IMG/VR virus record: IMGVR_UViG_3300025264_000101
Location: 1 to 25,715 of that record
Reading direction: 5' to 3' (one strand)
DNA: 25,715 bases
Source: a virus
Taxonomy: Duplodnaviria; Caudoviricetes
Position numbers and translations under genes: made by a program. A model generated the notes under the pieces. The model was not told the DNA's origin and searched no databases. It worked only from the letters and a program-made list of their open reading frames with translations. Positions 5,447 to 23,917 of this stretch are shown piece by piece. Within the stretch, counting starts at the first letter, position 1, and each line of letters starts with the position of its first letter.

Positions 5447-5671
5447 ATGAGATTAATCAACAAGCGGCAACTGGCGGATTATTTATCCGTCAGCCTAACG
5501 ACCATTGGCCGCATGGCCAAAAGAGGTGAATTGCCTGACCCCATCAGACTGGGGCCGGGGATCGTCAGGTGGGATTTGCAAAAAATTGATTTATTGATCG
5601 ATTCCAAATCAACAACAAGCGGGTATGATGATCCGGACATACAACTATTGAAAAAGGTGAATCATGGATAA
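5447..5671 (+). CDS. AlpA/Xis-type excisionase
   Basis: LINKRQLADYLSVSLTTIGRMAKRGELPDPIRLGPGIVRW; overlaps the integrase start. Confidence 0.85.
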   Translation: MRLINKRQLADYLSVSLTTIGRMAKRGELPDPIRLGPGIVRWDLQKIDLLIDSKSTTSGYDDPDIQLLKKVNHG

Positions 5672-6524
5672 ACGACGGAAATATATTCTGGAAGGTTCTC
5701 TTGGAGCCTTGATCCAGGAATACCGCGCCAGCCCGGAATTTGACCGGCTGGTTGACGGAACCAGACAAGCCTATCTGAGATCGATAGATCGGCTGACGCC
5801 GCTATACCGCGTCAAGGTTGATGAAATCCGGCGGCGGCATATCATCACGCTCAGAAATCAGATCCGCCAGACCCCGGGCGCGGCAAATCATCTGGTTTCA
5901 GTTGTCAGCGTGTTGATGAAATTTGCGGTGATGATGGAGTATCGGGACGACCTGCTGGCGGGAATTGAAAAGCTGCCGATTGGCGAGCATAGCAGATGGT
6001 CAGATCAGGATGTGGAATTTGCCCTGGATAATTTTCCAGAGCATCTCAGGCGGGCTGTCGTTCTGGCCCTTCACACCGGCCAACGCGCCAGTGACCTGGT
6101 CAAGATGAAGTGGTCTGATTTTGATGGCGAAGGCATCACGGTCACCCAGAAGAAGACCGGCACCAGTTTGTGGCTGCCGTGCAATTTGGAATTGCGGCAA
6201 GAACTGGAAGCGTGGAAGGTGGACAGAACGACCATGACAATTCTGTCCAGGCCGAGTGGCCAGCCTTATTCCGCGACGGCGTTATGCGGTGCAATGTCAA
6301 AAATGATTGCCAGATGCCAGCCAAAATTACTTGGCTTGCGCTTTCATGGCTTGCGGATGACTGCCGCCGCCAAGCTGGCGGAAGCCGGTTGCTCTGTTCA
6401 CGAGATTGCATCAATCACCGGCCACAAGAGTTTGCAGATGATCGAGCATTACACGGCTGGTGCAGACCAGATCCGGCGGGCAAAAGCCGCCATTGTAAAA
6501 TTGGAACAATATTCGGCTAATTAA
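5664..6524 (+). CDS. Tyrosine recombinase/integrase (286 aa)
   Basis: Catalytic motifs TGQRASDL (R), QKKTG (K), FHGLR (HxxR), TGHKS (H) and EHYT (Y). Confidence 0.93.
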   Translation: MDKRRKYILEGSLGALIQEYRASPEFDRLVDGTRQAYLRSIDRLTPLYRVKVDEIRRRHIITLRNQIRQTPGAANHLVSVVSVLMKFAVMMEYRDDLLAGIEKLPIGEHSRWSDQDVEFALDNFPEHLRRAVVLALHTGQRASDLVKMKWSDFDGEGITVTQKKTGTSLWLPCNLELRQELEAWKVDRTTMTILSRPSGQPYSATALCGAMSKMIARCQPKLLGLRFHGLRMTAAAKLAEAGCSVHEIASITGHKSLQMIEHYTAGADQIRRAKAAIVKLEQYSAN

Positions 6525-8352: not shown

Positions 8353-8950
8353 TGGTGTCTTCTTCCGCCTTCAAAAACAATGCTGAAATTCTGTTGGCCC
8401 GTTCGCCGACCTGGTCGGCCCACTGGCTGTCCAGGGCTTCCGTTGCGGCGGTGTCAAAATCACCATCCTTCAAGGCCGCCAGCATACGGGAAAATCCTCG
8501 TAATCTGGGCACCCCGAGATTGAATGCCATGTTCGCCAGACCGCGCTGGGCCGGTTCCGGCATCTTGCTCCACCACGGAAACCCGGCATTCAGTTCACTG
8601 ACAGTGCGCTTGATGTCGTTGTCCAGCAGATCCATCGCCTCGACGGCGGAAATACCTATGGCGTCTAAATTTCTGCCGGTGCCGATCGTCAAGGCGCCAG
8701 CCGTGCAATGGTACGGCTTCAGCTTGACGCCTTCGTCCATTTTCAAATCGTCGGAAAGTTGTTTTGCGTCCATTTTTTCTATCGGCTTGGGGCGGTTGAA
8801 AATACGTTCCGGCAATTCGCGGTAGACCAGACAGTCATAGTTTTCAGTATGGCCTTTCAACGGCCCGTTGAACTTCCAGCCGTTTATGATGTAGCCTTCA
8901 ATTTCGTGATATTCGGCATAGCGCAATTCAATTTCTGCGCGGTTTCTCAT
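8345..8950 (-). CDS. Endolysin, T4-lysozyme-like (GH24)
   Basis: DEGVKLKPYHCTAGALTIGTGRNL, LANMAFNLG and EALDSQWADQVGERANR. The lysozyme domain starts near M60 (8773). Confidence 0.9.
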   Translation of the reverse strand: MRNRAEIELRYAEYHEIEGYIINGWKFNGPLKGHTENYDCLVYRELPERIFNRPKPIEKMDAKQLSDDLKMDEGVKLKPYHCTAGALTIGTGRNLDAIGISAVEAMDLLDNDIKRTVSELNAGFPWWSKMPEPAQRGLANMAFNLGVPRLRGFSRMLAALKDGDFDTAATEALDSQWADQVGERANRISALFLKAEEDTNG

Positions 8951-9336
8951 TTACCGAATGCCTTTTTGAAACTCTTTTCTTCATTTTCTGGCGTCATCAT
9001 ATCGCACGCTATTGTCGATGTGAGGGTGGTGATGTCCTGCACTCGGCGAAATAAGCAAACGTCCAGATCGACGGCCACCAGGCAAACGATGTCGCAGTCA
9101 TCCTTCGTGAGTTTCCGCCGCCGTATTCCGCGGCTGGTCATAAATTGGTACCACCGGCCATCTTTTTGTGGTGATTTCGAAGCCTTGACCTGGATACGCT
9201 TGATGCGTTTGTCCTTCATGGCGATCAAGTCAACGCCTTCCGTCGTCGCCACGACCACGCGCCAGCCGTTCTTTTCAAGACAGGCCGCCGCCAGATATTC
9301 GCCTGCGCGACCAACATCATTGTTGTCGCCGACCAA
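8947..9336 (-). CDS. Free-standing PD-(D/E)XK endonuclease
   Basis: GRAGEYLAAACLEKNGW...VDLIA...IQVKAS...DCDIVCLV. Confidence 0.75.
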   Translation of the reverse strand: MVGDNNDVGRAGEYLAAACLEKNGWRVVVATTEGVDLIAMKDKRIKRIQVKASKSPQKDGRWYQFMTSRGIRRRKLTKDDCDIVCLVAVDLDVCLFRRVQDITTLTSTIACDMMTPENEEKSFKKAFGK

Positions 9337-19336: not shown

Positions 19337-19389
19337 AAAAAAAGCGGCCTGAGCCGCTGGAAAAGGTGGGGGAGACCGAAGCCTCCCCC
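19337..19389 (-). terminator. Tandem hairpins/terminators after the major capsid gene
   Basis: GGGGGAGGC-TTCG-GTCTCCCCC (19368-19389), then AGCGGC-TCAG-GCCGCT with a T-run (19337-19358). Confidence 0.8.
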
Positions 19390-19403: not shown

Positions 19404-21099
19404 CTAGGAGCCGTTCAGGTCAGCTACCCACGCGCTTGCTTTTGGAGCTTTCATTATGAGAGTCCATTCTGAAAGCACGACGAACTTGGTAGCGTCTCCC
19501 GTTGGCGCTACAGATTCTACATTAAACATGCGGCCTGGAAGGTGGCCGATGCTGTAGAAATCCGAATCTAGCAACCAGATACGGTCGTCTTCATTGAATC
19601 TATCAATGACGACGTCCAACATGCCGAACTTGCTGTTTACTGCGAGGCTCTTTATCCCCGCTCCCACCTTTAGATGGGTGTCGGACTATATCATCACCCC
19701 GATGGGGTGTTCCGCGCTCTTGGGCCTTTACCGTCCCGGTGGGACTCCATGACCTAGTCTCTGGACCTGCCTGCCATTACTGACAGGATTGGCTGCTGAT
19801 TACCTTGCCTTACGGTTTAGGCTTCCAGCAATTCACGGAATTTTAGACGGACCTCGGCTAGTGAATTTGATCCGTCAAATACATCGAAACGCTTCCGATG
19901 ATTGTGGCTTCCTTCGGGGAAGTCATGTGCAACTGGTTGGTCACTGCGCTGCCCGAATTAAGGTCGGAGAAATTGACCTTGTTGGTGGGGCTAACCACCA
20001 TCATGTCGGGCTGGCCGCCATCGGTGTAGGCCGCTTTCATGGCCGTATCGATTTTAGCCAACGTCAACGCTGCGTTAGTCCCGGCGAGATCGCTGACATT
20101 TGAACCATCGCCCGTCGCTGTCGTAGACGGCGAAATCACGCTCTGGTTTGTCATGTACGAAGCCAATTTACCGGCTTTACGAGTGTCCGAAGCATTACGC
20201 GCTTCAACAGTGATGAGACATTTCTCAATGTCGCGTCTTTGCTCTAACCCTTTGCCTTTTGTTCAACAGAGTTCGCAAAACCCTGCCCGTCCAATATTGG
20301 ACTGCTGCATGTTTCCATACAGAGCGGACTATATCTTCACCCTATGAGGGGCTGGGCGCTTCGGATTGCTTAATCCTACTTCCTAGCGGAATAGTCTCTG
20401 AACCTTCCCCCGCAGGGGCTTGGCTGCTGATTGTCCTCGCCATCATGCGTTAGGATGTTCCAGCAATTCACCCAGTTGTTTGCTGCCTGTTACCAGACAG
20501 GCTACCCAAAAATACTAAGCAGCTTAACGTAGGCCGTTTCCTTGTCACGGCCTGCCTTATCGACCGCGTCCAATGTGCCGGATACGCTGGCGGCATTGGC
20601 CGAGATCTGATGGTAGTTACCCAATCTTGTGGTCATTATCTTCAGGACAGTTCGCTAAACCATCCCCGCCCCTCAGGGCCGCTGCATGTCGCCATGCAGA
20701 TGAGACTATATTATCACCCCGGTGGGGTGTTCCGCGCTTCCCCGCCGCTTGGCAGGTACTCCTTTCGGATAGTCGTTGAACCTTCCCTTGCGGGCTTGGC
20801 TGCTGATTATCTCGGAGAGACTTCCCAGCAATTCACGGAATTTTCAGTCACGCCTTGCGACGTAACGGGCCTACAAATTAAGCCGTTGGGTTAACATACG
20901 AATAATCGGCCCCTTCGTTTTTAGCATTACCATTATCTGCGGCTGCTAATTCCTGGACCTGCCATTCGTGAAACACGCCCTTAGTTACTTCCCGTTTGGC
21001 ATTCGAGAAAATGGGCGTCTCGTCTGGGTCGATTCTGGTTATGACATTAACCAAATCTTCCTTTTCGCCAATAGCTGACGAGGTTGTGTAGGTTGCCAT
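19404..21099 (-). CDS. Major capsid protein (SU10/DUF5309-like), spliced: join(20881..21099, 20518..20633, 19870..20254, 19404..19628), 314 aa
   Basis: AGGAGG RBS; follows the scaffold gene. Exons total 219+116+385+225 = 945 nt in one frame. Junctions read NPTA|TTRLGNYHQI, AYVKLL|KGLEQRRDIE and MYLTD|FGMLDVVIDR. The EDL..I..I.P.ETP and HEWQ..EL motifs fit this capsid family. Confidence 0.9.
19629..19869 (-). ncRNA. Group I intron 3 of the capsid gene (241 nt, no P2, no ORF)
   Basis: P AATTGCTGGAA, Q AATCAGCAG, R CCAGAGACTA, S ATGATATAGTCC. P1 GACGGAU/GUCCGUC; P10 GCCGAG/UUCGGC; P3 TTCCGTG/CGCGGAA; P8 CACCCC/GGGGTG; ends ...CAGCAAG. Confidence 0.93.
20255..20517 (-). ncRNA. Group I intron 2 of the capsid gene (263 nt, IA-like, no ORF)
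   Basis: P AATTGCTGGAA, Q AATCAGCAG, R TCAGAGACTA, S AAGATATAGTCC. P1 GCUGCU/GGUAGC; P10 UUUUUG/CAAAGG; P2 with GUAA loop; P3 CTGGGTG/CGCCCAG; P9 with GAAA loop; ends ...AAAAGG. Confidence 0.93.
20634..20880 (-). ncRNA. Group I intron 1 of the capsid gene (247 nt, IA-like, no ORF)
   Basis: P AATTGCTGGGAA, Q AATCAGCAG, R TCAACGACTA, S ATAATATAGTCT. P1 GGCU/GGCC with U-G wobble; P2 with GCAA loop; P3 TTCCGTG/CGCGGAA; P7.1, P7.2, P8 and P9 hairpins; ends ...GATAATG. Confidence 0.92.
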
Positions 21100-21110
21100 G
21101 ATGGCACCTC

Positions 21111-22151
21111 CTATCGTTCAAGCAGATATTCAACGGCTGCATCCATAGAATCTCTGCCCTTGGTTTGTGAAATGCGGGAGAGCTTGTCAGCCTGCCGCCT
21201 TGAGGATTTTTCGGCTTTGCTTTTAGGTCGGCCAGCGCGAACCATTCGGGGCGCGTTCTTGACTTTGACCTTGGCCTTGGGCGTTTCGTTCTGCAAGGCG
21301 TCGAATAACATTGCCTTACGCAAAATCGAAATTGCCCGACTATCAGATGCTTGGCTTAGCTCTTGCTCACTGAATCCGGAGCGCTGGGCGTATGTGATGA
21401 CGTCGGATTTCTCCTTCGCCGCCACGTCGTTATCCCGCCATTCGGGTATTCGCTCAAGAAGTGCTGCGTGTTCATTCTGGAGATGCGCCGCCCACTGCTG
21501 TTGCGTAGCGGCGGTGTGCTGGGCCTGCAACGCTGCCCGTTCTTCTTGGACTTGGCGTTGTTTTTCTTGACGGTCACGAAACTGATCCCGCTGAACCATG
21601 TATTCCATTGGGTCGTCGTCTCGCAACTGGTCCCAGTTTGGTTCCGGTTCCCCGGCACCTGTCTGCAACATCTCGTCGGCCATTTGCAGCCTGGTGGCGA
21701 GGTGCGCTCTCATCTCTGAAAGCTCCTGGCTCGCCTGCGCAAATTGCTGGCGTTCGCCATCGACCGCTTTACGGTCGGCAGCTAATGCCTGCGTCTTTTG
21801 CGTATAGTCGCCACCACGCTGATAGCCAGCGATCAGCTCGTCCGCCGATACATCAACATCCTCACCGGCAACCTTTACCGTGTAGTAGTCAATGGTGGCT
21901 TCATCACTGTCGTCGTCATCGTCGTCTGCGACCTGGTCTTGGTCATCCTCGGCGTCTGCGTTTGCCGCTTCCACGGGCGCGTCGTCCTCGGCGTCGTCTG
22001 TGCCAGCGTCGAGTATTTCCGGCGCTGGTTGCTCTTCCGCTTCGACCGGAGGTTCCTGTTCTGGAGCCGGTATAGACAGAAGGTGTTCGACCGCGCTGTT
22101 TACAGACAGCGGGCCGGTGCCAGTCCCTTCAGGGATGCTGGTATCAGCCAT
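21111..22151 (-). CDS. Capsid scaffolding protein
   Basis: Acidic low-complexity N-terminus, YTVKVAGEDVDVSADELIAGYQRGGDYTQKTQALA, coiled coil; directly upstream of the capsid gene. Confidence 0.85.
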   Translation of the reverse strand: MADTSIPEGTGTGPLSVNSAVEHLLSIPAPEQEPPVEAEEQPAPEILDAGTDDAEDDAPVEAANADAEDDQDQVADDDDDDSDEATIDYYTVKVAGEDVDVSADELIAGYQRGGDYTQKTQALAADRKAVDGERQQFAQASQELSEMRAHLATRLQMADEMLQTGAGEPEPNWDQLRDDDPMEYMVQRDQFRDRQEKQRQVQEERAALQAQHTAATQQQWAAHLQNEHAALLERIPEWRDNDVAAKEKSDVITYAQRSGFSEQELSQASDSRAISILRKAMLFDALQNETPKAKVKVKNAPRMVRAGRPKSKAEKSSRRQADKLSRISQTKGRDSMDAAVEYLLER

Positions 22152-22178: not shown

Positions 22179-22427
22179 TTAGTCGATGCCTAGTTGCCGC
22201 CGGGAGAGTTCGCCTGTTACGGCGATTTGCTCGATGTGCCCGCGCACGTCGCGCAGGGCTGTGGTGAGCGCGAATAATCTCTCACGCTCGTCCGTTTGAC
22301 CTGTGGCTGTTGCTTTCCAACTAGCCGTGTAGGTCGATTCCAATGTTTCAAATGCTTCCGCTAACAGTTCGTTTCGAAGAAGCAACTCGGCGGCTTTGCC
22401 GCGTGCGATTTCCTCTTCGCGGTTCAT
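22179..22427 (-). CDS. Small conserved head-region protein
   Basis: RGKAAELLLRNELLAEAF...W...ERERLF; helical, located between portal and scaffold. Confidence 0.75.
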   Translation of the reverse strand: MNREEEIARGKAAELLLRNELLAEAFETLESTYTASWKATATGQTDERERLFALTTALRDVRGHIEQIAVTGELSRRQLGID

Positions 22428-23917
22428 GGGCCTAGGAACATGTCAGGATAAGATTGTTTCTTCGGCTTCACTCGCCTTTCGTCTTCAGGAAGGGAAAGGT
22501 CTGGCGGCGGTGGCGGCGGAGCCTGCCAAGTCACCGTGTCTGGATCAAATACCCTCGTATTTTCACCATACGGATTTGGCGGTGATCCCATCAGGCCATA
22601 CTCACCAATGTTGTACATGCCGCCATGTTGAGCCAGCCCACTCTCAGCCGCTACCCGCTCCAATTCTGGTAGGAACTCCCTAAACTTGGCAGGGACATCG
22701 CCCACCCACGGCACGATATTGGTTCCGCCGGATGTATGAACTGCGCCGGGCACGCCGCCTTCCGCGGCTCTCTTCATGACTTCAATCGATGCTGGGTTCA
22801 GAAAGACTTGTTGCCTTAGATTTTCCAGTTCGAGCGCTTCTTGTTCTGGGCCTTGCAACGCACGCTGGAAATAGTTCTCTAGCTGGTTAGCCATTCTGGG
22901 ATCAGCGGTCGGATCTGGGGCCATGCGTCGCATGCCGTACATCGCTAAGGCCAGCGGCAAAGCTGCGCCTGCAAATGAACCGGCAGCGGCAGAGCCTGGG
23001 CCGCCGAGTGCGCCGCCTGTTAGGGCACCGGATGCGAAACCCGACATTGGAGCGCCAAGGTAAGTCGTGCCTAAAAATGCTGGTGCTGCTCCAAAGCCCG
23101 TTGCGCCAATACCGCCTAAATCCATAACCGCTTGCTGTGCAATCGTTGGCGTTGCTCCAGAACCAAGCGCCTGAATGCCGCCCAAGTCCATAGCCGCCTG
23201 CTGCGCCGTTGTTAGCCCCGGTGTCGTGGTCCCATAAGCTGACTGAATAGCCTGAGCTTGTTCCGCCCAAGTCGGGGCGAATTCTGACGTTGCCAGACCG
23301 CCATCGCCATATAATTGAGTGGCATCAATAGGCAGGCCTAGGTTGCCAGGTTGCGCGGCAACTGAAGCAGGGTCAACCATCGGGAAGGCATCCACCATTG
23401 GCGGCGTCAACGATTGAACCGGGGCGTTTGAAAGTAAGCCACCGTCTAGCGTTGGTGCGATCCCCTCACCAAACGCGCCACCGGGCATCTCTGGGATAGC
23501 GCCGCTCTGGTAAGCCTCAATTAATCCCGCTGGCATATCGCTAGGCCCGAACGACGTGCTGAAGAAATCACTGAGCGGCACGTCACTGAATGGATTCAAT
23601 GCGTCCCAGTTCAGGTTGCCGGTATCGATGCCAGCATGGTCAAGCAGGCTTTTGCCCGTCAGTAGACTGGACAGGTTGTTGGCACCGCCAAGCACGGATG
23701 CAGCCGACAGTAAGCCGCCCAGCGTGCTGGTGTCCGCGCCGCCGCCGAAGTCGCCTGATGTCAAGCCTCCACCGCCACCGCCACCATAGCTCGGATAAGT
23801 GCCCGACCAGTCGCCGCCTGTCGGGGAATAGGCGTAGGCTCTTGTGGGCGCGTAGGTGGCAAAACCCGGTGCAGTCAGATATTCGGGCGTCGGTGGTGCC
23901 CAGGTTCCAATAGGCAT
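22424..23917 (-). CDS. Gly/Ala/Pro-rich low-complexity protein (497 aa)
   Basis: Long ORF abutting the portal stop and coupled to the next gene; internal repeat AQQA(A/V)MDLGGI. Confidence 0.7.
   Translation of the reverse strand: MPIGTWAPPTPEYLTAPGFATYAPTRAYAYSPTGGDWSGTYPSYGGGGGGGLTSGDFGGGADTSTLGGLLSAASVLGGANNLSSLLTGKSLLDHAGIDTGNLNWDALNPFSDVPLSDFFSTSFGPSDMPAGLIEAYQSGAIPEMPGGAFGEGIAPTLDGGLLSNAPVQSLTPPMVDAFPMVDPASVAAQPGNLGLPIDATQLYGDGGLATSEFAPTWAEQAQAIQSAYGTTTPGLTTAQQAAMDLGGIQALGSGATPTIAQQAVMDLGGIGATGFGAAPAFLGTTYLGAPMSGFASGALTGGALGGPGSAAAGSFAGAALPLALAMYGMRRMAPDPTADPRMANQLENYFQRALQGPEQEALELENLRQQVFLNPASIEVMKRAAEGGVPGAVHTSGGTNIVPWVGDVPAKFREFLPELERVAAESGLAQHGGMYNIGEYGLMGSPPNPYGENTRVFDPDTVTWQAPPPPPPDLSLPEDERRVKPKKQSYPDMFLGP

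What the first reader, a model, noticed from the sequence alone, without database searches (positions are those of the whole stretch)
19404..21099. Major capsid gene interrupted by three ORF-less group I introns
Seen: the capsid gene appears in the ORF track only as fragments, separated by three non-coding inserts (20634-20880, 20255-20517, 19629-19869). Each insert has the group I P/Q/R/S core, a P1 helix placing a U-G wobble at the 5' junction, a terminal G and a P10 pairing (full in introns 2 and 3, partial in intron 1). Excision at these structure-defined sites gives an uninterrupted 945-nt, 314-aa ORF, including a split codon (CT|C) at intron 2. Known: phage group I introns mostly sit in DNA-metabolism genes (T4 td, nrdB, nrdD), and Staphylococcus phage Twort orf142 has three. 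I do not know of a described triple-intron major capsid gene in a temperate P22-like podovirus. Inference: the most abundant virion protein needs three splicing events, which could act as a timing or physiological gate on assembly. Automated annotation would call this a pseudogene or several hypothetical genes.
Basis: partly seen in the sequence, partly recalled or inferred. Interest (0 to 1): 0.95.

Follow-up and report, generated by a model that had tools for sequence, protein, structure and literature searches.

The report
Three self-splicing introns in capsid gene
A marine phage's major capsid gene is interrupted by three small group I introns with no protein genes; they are predicted to splice themselves out, and relatives carry changing sets of such introns at 16 sites, so they are likely mobile passengers rather than a control switch.

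Summary
Observation confirmed. Three Rfam group I hits (81-89 bits) lie at the stated places. Removing them gives a 314-aa SU10-type capsid protein, 87% identical to an intron-free 314-aa homologue, with no junction gaps in 97 of 97 homologues. Splicing itself is untested: no RNA holder was listed.

The 'assembly gate' reading is not supported. Close relatives lack these introns or carry other sets: 16 sites, three different triple sets, all mapped inserts 208-300 nt.

The kind is known: capsid introns (LittleE, Tuc2009), a five-piece crAss-like capsid gene, and three introns in Twort orf142. This scan also noted similar genes on other DNA (151 notes).

What this family adds:
- Intron 1 is 94% identical to an intron 57 nt away in a relative's gene, after the same 5' target.
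- Intron relatedness tracks target sequence across sites (rho 0.31, p 0.004).
- A 35-nt exon tract travels with intron 1.
- No reverse transcriptase, HNH or GIY-YIG gene was found in the complete genome.
- Unspliced products often end in Ala-Ala or hydrophobic-His, degron-like tails (16 of 24 lineages; only intron 3 here).

The parts
21111..22151 (-). Head scaffolding protein gene, directly upstream of the capsid gene
   Evidence: phrog_3927, E 4e-55
20881..21099 (-). Capsid exon 1 (codons 1-73); the first intron codon is a stop
   Evidence: PF17236 3-68
20634..20880 (-). Group I intron 1, 247 nt, site 73.0; P1, P2, core, P7.1+P7.2, P9-P9.2; partial P10; 94% identical to the site-54.0 intron of L041/L045/L275
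20518..20633 (-). Capsid exon 2 (116 nt)
   Evidence: PF17236 73-107
20255..20517 (-). Group I intron 2, 263 nt, site 111.2 (splits codon 112); P7.1+P7.2; 6-bp P10; unspliced read-through adds LSIFG then stops
19870..20254 (-). Capsid exon 3 (385 nt)
   Evidence: PF17236 112-222
19629..19869 (-). Group I intron 3, 241 nt, site 240.0; no P2; nested P7.1/P7.1a; 6-bp P10; unspliced read-through adds QIH then stops
19404..19628 (-). Capsid exon 4 with stop codon
   Evidence: PF17236 223-291
20858..20892 (-). 5' part (20881-20892, 12 nt) of the exon tract shared identically with distant phages carrying a site-73 intron, shown with the adjoining P1 guide region; the 3' part of the tract is 20611-20633 (23 nt)
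19343..19358 (-). Terminator-like hairpin plus T run after the capsid gene (consensus match only; the count in the region is not above shuffles)
8947..9336 (-). Free-standing PD-(D/E)XK_5 nuclease-like gene about 10 kb away, in the lysis region; not linked to intron presence
   Evidence: PF11645; homologue in intron-free G006 at a similar position
5664..6524 (+). Tyrosine integrase; with the CI-like repressor at 1887-2549 it marks a temperate phage

Best explanation
Three compact group I introns with no protein genes interrupt this temperate marine phage's major capsid gene, are predicted to splice themselves out to give a normal 314-aa capsid protein, and are likely near-neutral mobile passengers rather than a switch. 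Shown: the ribozyme anatomy, the gap-free protein, and a patchwork of intron sets among relatives. Inferred step 1: new sites likely arise when an excised intron reverse-splices into capsid mRNA at a short match to its guide sequence and is copied into DNA by a host enzyme. Inferred step 2: once in DNA, introns likely spread between co-infecting phages by recombination that carries short exon flanks along. Inferred step 3: an in-frame stop within 0-5 codons of each 5' splice site would keep ribosomes out of the core. In many family members the truncated product ends in a degron-like tail (Ala-Ala or hydrophobic-His) that would let host proteases clear it. My odds: splicing works 0.95; passenger rather than gate 0.8; guide-directed RNA route for new sites 0.45; tails selected as degrons 0.55.
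For: Splicing competence. Two-sided changes keep 39 of 58 predicted pairs across 10 introns and 16 of 68 across 6 site-240 introns (no shuffle control run). Passenger: intron-bearing capsid loci are 14 of 45, 19 of 35, 2 of 6 and 0 of 80 (ranked to favour intact genes), mapped; 8 of these loci are copies of the window's own phage. There are 15 sites plus site 114.2, with triple sets {73,111,240}, {22,101,240} and {76,101,114}. Ectopic movement: intron 1 and the site-54.0 intron are 94% identical and both follow CGGCT, a 5-mer found at 139 of 25,943 U-ending exon positions. Core identity, guide excluded, correlates with 5'-exon match across sites: rho 0.31, p 0.004, n 15; 0.26, p 0.016 with other representatives; 0.28, p 0.022 without three members of that clade. 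DNA-level spread: a 35-nt identical exon tract around site 73 occurs in phages only 68% identical, the longest among 112 distant genes (next 26). Intron-less close alleles differ at synonymous positions right at sites 73 and 111. No RVT_1, HNH, HNH_3 or GIY-YIG match in 0 of 5 records, including the complete genome G001, and no nuclease family among 56 flanking proteins (56 of 153 ORFs scanned). Tails: 16 of 24 lineages against 1 of 47 alternative frames, 0 of 262 later stops and a shuffle mean of 0.24. Two cases found later fit: C72C1 ends LTLH and site 114.2 ends SAAA. The Lon motif x-L/I-L/I/V-H is from PMC11986505 (passages).
Against: No splicing was observed. No reverse transcriptase was found in the phage, and PMC3984707 (passages) says the reverse-splicing route lacks direct experimental evidence. 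Short co-converted flanks are also what endonuclease homing leaves; LAGLIDADG and unknown nuclease families were not searched genome-wide, and co-infecting phages could supply one. Related introns in other genes do have endonuclease-sized inserts. The 94% pair could reflect one intron overwriting a related one, because site 73 also holds an 83%-identical version (L279-281). The correlation is modest and the boundaries are computed; one (L077) was first misplaced and then corrected. Tails: window introns 1 (PTA) and 2 (SIFG) do not fit, and His is absent in 2 of 16 site-240 hits. Many near-clade introns in other genes end in Asp. Natural ORF ends already show 31 of 299. The His class was defined after seeing the data, and in several lineages these bases can also pair with the P3/P4 junction.
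Confidence: 0.6

Rival explanations
1. Homing in trans: the introns splice, but they move because an endonuclease, free-standing or from a since-lost intron ORF or a co-infecting phage, cuts intron-less capsid alleles, and repair copies the intron with short flanks (collaborative homing).
For: Short co-converted tracts at sites 73 and 111. Sites lie in slightly more conserved codons than average (0.845 vs 0.802, p 0.036). Related introns in other genes carry endonucleases. A PD-(D/E)XK_5 gene lies in the genome. The mechanism is described in PMC3984707 (passages).
Against: No mapped capsid insert in this family exceeds 300 nt (44 loci; 16 of 16 site-240 hits are 237-241 nt). No nuclease family was found next to the capsid gene. 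The PD-(D/E)XK gene is 10 kb away and also present in an intron-free relative. One nuclease would not explain 16 sites or the guide-target correlation.
Confidence: 0.25
2. Regulatory gate: three splicing steps delay or condition capsid production on GTP level or host growth state, and this is selected for.
For: Group I splicing needs guanosine, and T4 intron splicing is reported to depend on translation and growth state; 'on-switch' ideas are in print (PMC11878797, passages). The ribozyme structures are conserved.
Against: Most retrieved relatives have no capsid intron, and close strains differ in intron content. Sixteen sites in shifting combinations fit turnover, not a fixed device. Structure conservation is required in any essential gene. 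No sensor domain was found by Rfam.
Confidence: 0.1
3. The 94% pair records recombination between related introns already sitting at two sites (conversion), and shared introns mainly act as homology islands for exon exchange between phages.
For: The site-54 intron shares some loops with the other site-73 version rather than with the window's. L028 matches the window to codon 240, then carries an exon 4 that is 95% identical to another lineage.
Against: It does not explain how sites arise, nor the family-wide correlation that persists without three members of this clade. L028 could be an assembly chimera.
Confidence: 0.3
4. Dead gene or assembly artefact: the inserts inactivate the capsid gene or are misassembled.
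For: No RNA evidence is available.
Against: The same gene occurs in at least 8 other contig records, and 12 runs hold 97% or more of its words, 10 of them possibly its source. The exons are intact and the structures are compensated. It is the only capsid match in the window, and none was found in the rest of the complete genome.
Confidence: 0.02

Closest known systems
Staphylococcus phage Twort orf142 (tail tube gene with three group I introns)
   Same: Three group I introns in one late structural gene; two of them highly similar, subgroup IA2 (PMC10136302 and PMC11878797, passages). That they lack ORFs is recalled, not seen.
   Different: Here the gene is the major capsid gene of a temperate ~36-kb marine phage. 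The three introns are only 63-69% alike, and the near-identical sibling sits at another site in another phage.
Mycobacteriophage LittleE capsid intron and BAKA/Optimus tail intron; lactococcal phage Tuc2009 capsid intron
   Same: Capsid-gene intron in a temperate phage, spliced by RT-PCR. An ORF-less 265-nt relative in a tail gene shares 156 bp at 98% (PMC3706429, passages): a precedent for related introns at unrelated sites.
   Different: Single intron per gene; the LittleE intron encodes an endonuclease.
crAss-like Zeta-group MCP gene (OLRF01000054)
   Same: Major capsid gene split into five fragments by group I introns (PMC7886860, passages).
   Different: Large gut phages; three of the four inserts encode intron-type protein domains, whereas all mapped inserts here are 208-300 nt.
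Phage IA-type group I introns (T4 td/nrdB/nrdD, Bastillevirinae)
   Same: P7.1/P7.2-type insert between P7 and P3, in-frame stop just inside the 5' end (PMC3073962, passages), up to three introns per gene.
   Different: Mostly DNA-metabolism and terminase genes, and mostly with homing endonucleases (32 of 45 in Bastillevirinae).
Related group I introns at different rDNA sites (circumstantial reverse splicing)
   Same: Sibling introns at different positions of one highly expressed gene (PMC3984707, passages).
   Different: Here a phage protein-coding mRNA, with a 94% identical pair and exon co-conversion visible.
Phage C72C1 (OQ984150)
   Same: Homologous capsid gene (53%) split by a 251-nt group I intron at site 107.1.
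   Different: One intron, unannotated; no paper found under its name.

Membership tests
Group I intron (RF00028) | Covariance-model match above gathering score | tested here: met
   89.0, 88.9, 81.0 bits vs 50
Group I intron (RF00028) | P1 with U-G at the 5' splice site and terminal G | tested here: met
Group I intron (RF00028) | P3-P7 core with P4/P5/P6, P8, P9 | tested here: met
   two-sided changes in P3, P4, P5, P6. P7 was read from the conserved motifs, not from folding.
Group I intron (RF00028) | Removal restores the host gene without indels | tested here: met
   0 of 97 homologues gapped near junctions
Group I intron (RF00028) | Guanosine-dependent self-splicing | not testable with these tools
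   No RNA holder listed; needs in vitro or in vivo assay
Subgroup IA | Extra helices (P7.1/P7.2 or P7.1/P7.1a) between P7 and P3 | tested here: met
   Two hairpins in introns 1 and 2, a nested pair in intron 3; the subgroup definition is recalled
Subgroup IA | Best score to subgroup-specific models (IA1/IA2/IA3) | not testable with these tools
   Only RF00028 is held
Mobile (homing) group I intron | Intron-encoded homing endonuclease | tested here: not met
   241-263 nt, stops in all frames
Collaborative homing system | Free-standing endonuclease linked to the intron-bearing gene | tested here: inconclusive
   None adjacent; HNH, HNH_3, GIY-YIG absent; distant PD-(D/E)XK gene also in an intron-free phage; cleavage not testable
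SU10-type major capsid protein (PF17236 / phrog_1328) | Profile match over full length, next to scaffold, portal and adaptor genes | tested here: met
   solved relatives 9ny2_A and 7z45_A
P22-like podovirus | P22-type coat and portal as best families | tested here: not met
   Window proteins hit SU10_MCP, SU10_portal and SU10_adaptor; P22_portal matches only weakly in relatives
C-terminal degron on unspliced product | Ends in Ala-Ala (ssrA-like, recalled) or L/I/V-His (Lon-type) | tested here: inconclusive
   1 of 3 window introns; 16 of 24 family lineages. QIH lacks the L/I at position -3 of the published motif. Degradation untested.

The most novel reading that the evidence does not exclude
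A family of group I introns with no nuclease or reverse transcriptase of its own is still colonising new sites in the capsid mRNA of marine temperate phages by guide-directed reverse splicing. It leaves a 94%-identical pair at two sites as a fresh record, and it is tolerated because the introns append ClpXP-type or Lon-type degrons to capsid fragments made from unspliced RNA. The Lon-type hydrophobic-His tail was not in the earlier scan notes I was shown, and my one paper search on intron-encoded degrons listed nothing relevant.
Probability: 0.3. Interest if true: 0.8.

Novelty: new member of a known kind. Interest (0 to 1): 0.5.

Why it matters
How ORF-less group I introns reach new sites is an open question; the review I read (PMC3984707) cites only circumstantial rDNA evidence for reverse splicing. 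This family offers 16 sites in one 945-nt gene, a 94% identical pair at two sites, and close intron-less alleles, so the question can be tested with short RNAs. It also shows that capsid genes are common group I intron hosts in uncultured phages: 22 of 50 identified host genes in a motif-biased sample, and 4 of 13 in a tighter census. Standard annotation fragments these genes, which affects capsid-based phage surveys. If the tails are degrons, introns offset their own cost at the protein level.

Tried and rejected
RNA evidence: no RNA holder listed. A contig of run X20 (RNA is a guess) skips introns 1 and 2 but has different codons beside both junctions, so I read it as an intron-less allele, not spliced mRNA.

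X16 and X15 have 303 letters in place of 275 around intron 1; I could not identify that insert.

The PD-(D/E)XK gene as a homing enzyme: no solved-structure match, and it is not tied to intron presence.

The intron-1 guide motif was found at no site other than 73 and 54 (7 of 7 hits). The direction of the move could not be fixed: pairing with the site-54 3' exon is longer but offset.

The first correlation (n 18) included same-site pairs and one wrong boundary, and was replaced. Site labels 104.0, 118.0, 234.2, 245.0 and 246.2 were corrected to 113.0, 119.0, 233.2, 240.0 and 237.2.

No sigma-70-like promoter was found near the gene. Named phages hold only about 70%-identical intron relatives over most of the length.

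Paper searches listed no description of introns in SU10-type capsid genes. The library lacks most subscription papers, and the supplement of PMC11878797 that lists known phage introns could not be read. PMC10580990 and PMC12350094 (passages) did not bear on the point. Look-ups of earlier scan notes by place and by sequence returned nothing. The full-length spliced protein was not folded or searched as one piece; exons and homologues were used instead.

Full report
Observation. The window is a fragment of a temperate phage: integrase, CI-like repressor, excisionase-like gene, SU10-type portal, scaffold and adaptor. A record of the same phage, G001, carries one gene twice 36,046 nt apart, so the genome is about 36 kb. 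The best-holding runs are marine metagenomes, 10 of them flagged as possible sources. The host is unknown. Relatives at 70-73% lie in bins labelled Alphaproteobacteria, Nisaea and Rickettsiales, which may be misbinned. Rfam finds exactly three group I introns, all in the capsid gene, and no others in the complete genome.

Boundaries. Intron-free homologues are mostly 314 aa, the best is 272/314 identical, and 0 of 97 full-length homologues have a gap near a junction. P1, the core, the P7 extensions, P9 and P10 are present as described. Helices show two-sided changes across relatives: 39 of 58 and 16 of 68 predicted pairs, without a shuffle control. The three introns are 63-69% identical to each other, so they are separate arrivals rather than local duplicates. 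Splicing is inferred, not observed.

The family. Intron-bearing capsid genes were 14 of 45, 19 of 35, 2 of 6 and 0 of 80 loci in four searches (mapped). The last search ranks intact genes first, and 8 positives are copies of this phage. Rfam confirmed 16 hits in the 9 intron-bearing loci of 13 tested, and none in the 4 intact ones. After corrections there are 15 sites, and a 16th appeared later. All mapped inserts are 208-300 nt. Sets vary: three different triples, several pairs and singles. An allele 87% identical to the window has none. Contigs nearly identical in the flanks lack intron 2, one of them also intron 1, and another carries an extra intron-like insert at window 20957. This turnover is the main argument against a selected gate.

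How they move. Intron 1 (site 73.0) is 94% identical to the intron at site 54.0 of L041, L045 and L275. That is closer than the 83% to another site-73 version. Both follow CGGCT, which precedes 0.5% of U-ending exon positions, and the same clade also sits after GGCT at 187.0 and, with a compensated guide, after GCCT at 76.2. Across 15 sites, core identity correlates with 5'-exon match (rho 0.31, p 0.004; 0.26-0.28 in three sensitivity runs). This is what guide-directed insertion predicts, but conversion between resident introns could also explain the close pair.

Spread between phages is at the DNA level. Phages 68% identical share 35 identical exon bases around site 73, the longest tract among 112 distant genes. 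Intron-less close alleles differ at synonymous positions beside sites 73 and 111. L028 switches to a foreign exon 4 at intron 3, by recombination or misassembly. No RVT_1, HNH, HNH_3 or GIY-YIG match was found in five records, one of them complete, and none among 56 flanking proteins. The one nuclease-like gene of unclear role is 10 kb away and also occurs in an intron-free phage. Homing in trans remains open.

Unspliced products. Each window intron has an in-frame stop within five codons, a known trait (PMC3073962, passages). Following a lead from an earlier scan note, I tallied the tails. Sixteen of 24 hand-picked lineages end in Ala-Ala (9) or L/I/V-His (7), against 1 of 47 alternative frames, 0 of 262 later stops, a shuffle mean of 0.24, and 31 of 299 natural ORF ends. 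By site the count is 10 of 15. Two later cases fit. A terminal His after hydrophobic residues is a published Lon degron (PMC11986505, passages); the link of Ala-Ala to ClpXP is recalled. Against this: only intron 3 of the window fits, and only partly; 2 of 16 site-240 hits lack the His; near-clade introns in other genes often end in Asp; the His class was defined after the fact; and those bases can pair with the P3/P4 junction in some lineages, although L279 keeps Ile-His without that pairing.

Wider context. A core motif taken from these introns hit 124 loci in 4 of 64 parts of IMG/VR. Of 125 upstream segments scanned (127 computed, 2 duplicates dropped), 59 had no family, 16 were endonucleases and 50 were host genes. 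Of those 50, 22 were major capsid (10 PHROG families), 11 psbA, 3 each RNR, DNA polymerase, thymidylate-synthase-like and unknown, and 5 singles (counted by hand). A tighter census of 33 segments gave 4 capsid, 3 portal, 2 terminase, 4 other host genes, 5 endonucleases and 15 without a hit. Both samples are motif-biased and partly redundant.

Known systems. Spliced capsid introns are published for LittleE and cited for Tuc2009, with an ORF-less sibling in a tail gene (PMC3706429, passages). A crAss-like capsid gene is in five pieces (PMC7886860, passages). Twort orf142, a tail tube gene, has three introns (PMC11878797 and PMC10136302, passages; the 1999 paper was seen only as a reference title). 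On-switch hypotheses are in print. My searches listed no paper on this capsid family's introns, but one relevant supplement was unreadable. The scan has 151 similar notes in at least 127 genomes; these are unchecked and I use them only as leads.

Verdict. The feature is real and accurately described. It is a new member of a known kind, and the gate interpretation is unlikely. Its value lies in the population record of how nuclease-free introns move and are tolerated. Interest 0.5.

Noticed in passing
window 20957 (run X16, record of 1348 nt): A contig identical to the window over 444 nt carries an intron-like insert after codon 47, a further site not held as a locus.
   Followed up: partly
window 20607-20881 (runs X16, X15): Close strains that keep introns 2 and 3 (X16, one contig) have 303 other letters in place of this stretch, perhaps an intron at site 79.1 instead of 73.0.
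   Followed up: partly
L028:7472-7687: Exon 4 is 95% identical to L256 while exons 1-3 and the downstream DNA match the window: an exon swap at intron 3, or a chimera.
   Followed up: partly
site 111.2: window 20255-20517 vs L117:1432-1715: One site holds two intron lineages only 64% identical, suggesting independent invasions.
   Followed up: partly
window 19861-19867 (intron 3, P1 loop): Seven bases of the P1 loop, under the QIH-stop codons, are complementary to the P3/P4 junction; a terminating ribosome could block this alternative pairing.
   Followed up: partly
L043:5530-5798 vs L277:3216-3439: Otherwise 99% identical site-22.2 introns differ by a 45-nt insert in P9.
   Followed up: no
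L361:4323-4573 (phage C72C1): Unannotated group I intron in a GenBank phage capsid gene, annotated as two capsid genes and three hypothetical genes.
   Followed up: yes
window 8947-9336: PD-(D/E)XK_5 nuclease-like gene between lysis-region genes, at a similar position in related phages (34-49% identical).
   Followed up: partly
window 22424-23917; L360:7726-10778: Long low-complexity Gly/Ala-rich ORFs without clear family matches flank the portal gene; their lengths vary among relatives.
   Followed up: no
L036:7551-8603: Two DUF2589 genes are inserted just after the capsid gene in one relative.
   Followed up: no
L306, L308, L329, L335, L336, L342: Close relatives of these introns sit in a gene with weak portal matches, most with about 1-kb inserts that could hold endonuclease genes.
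   Followed up: no
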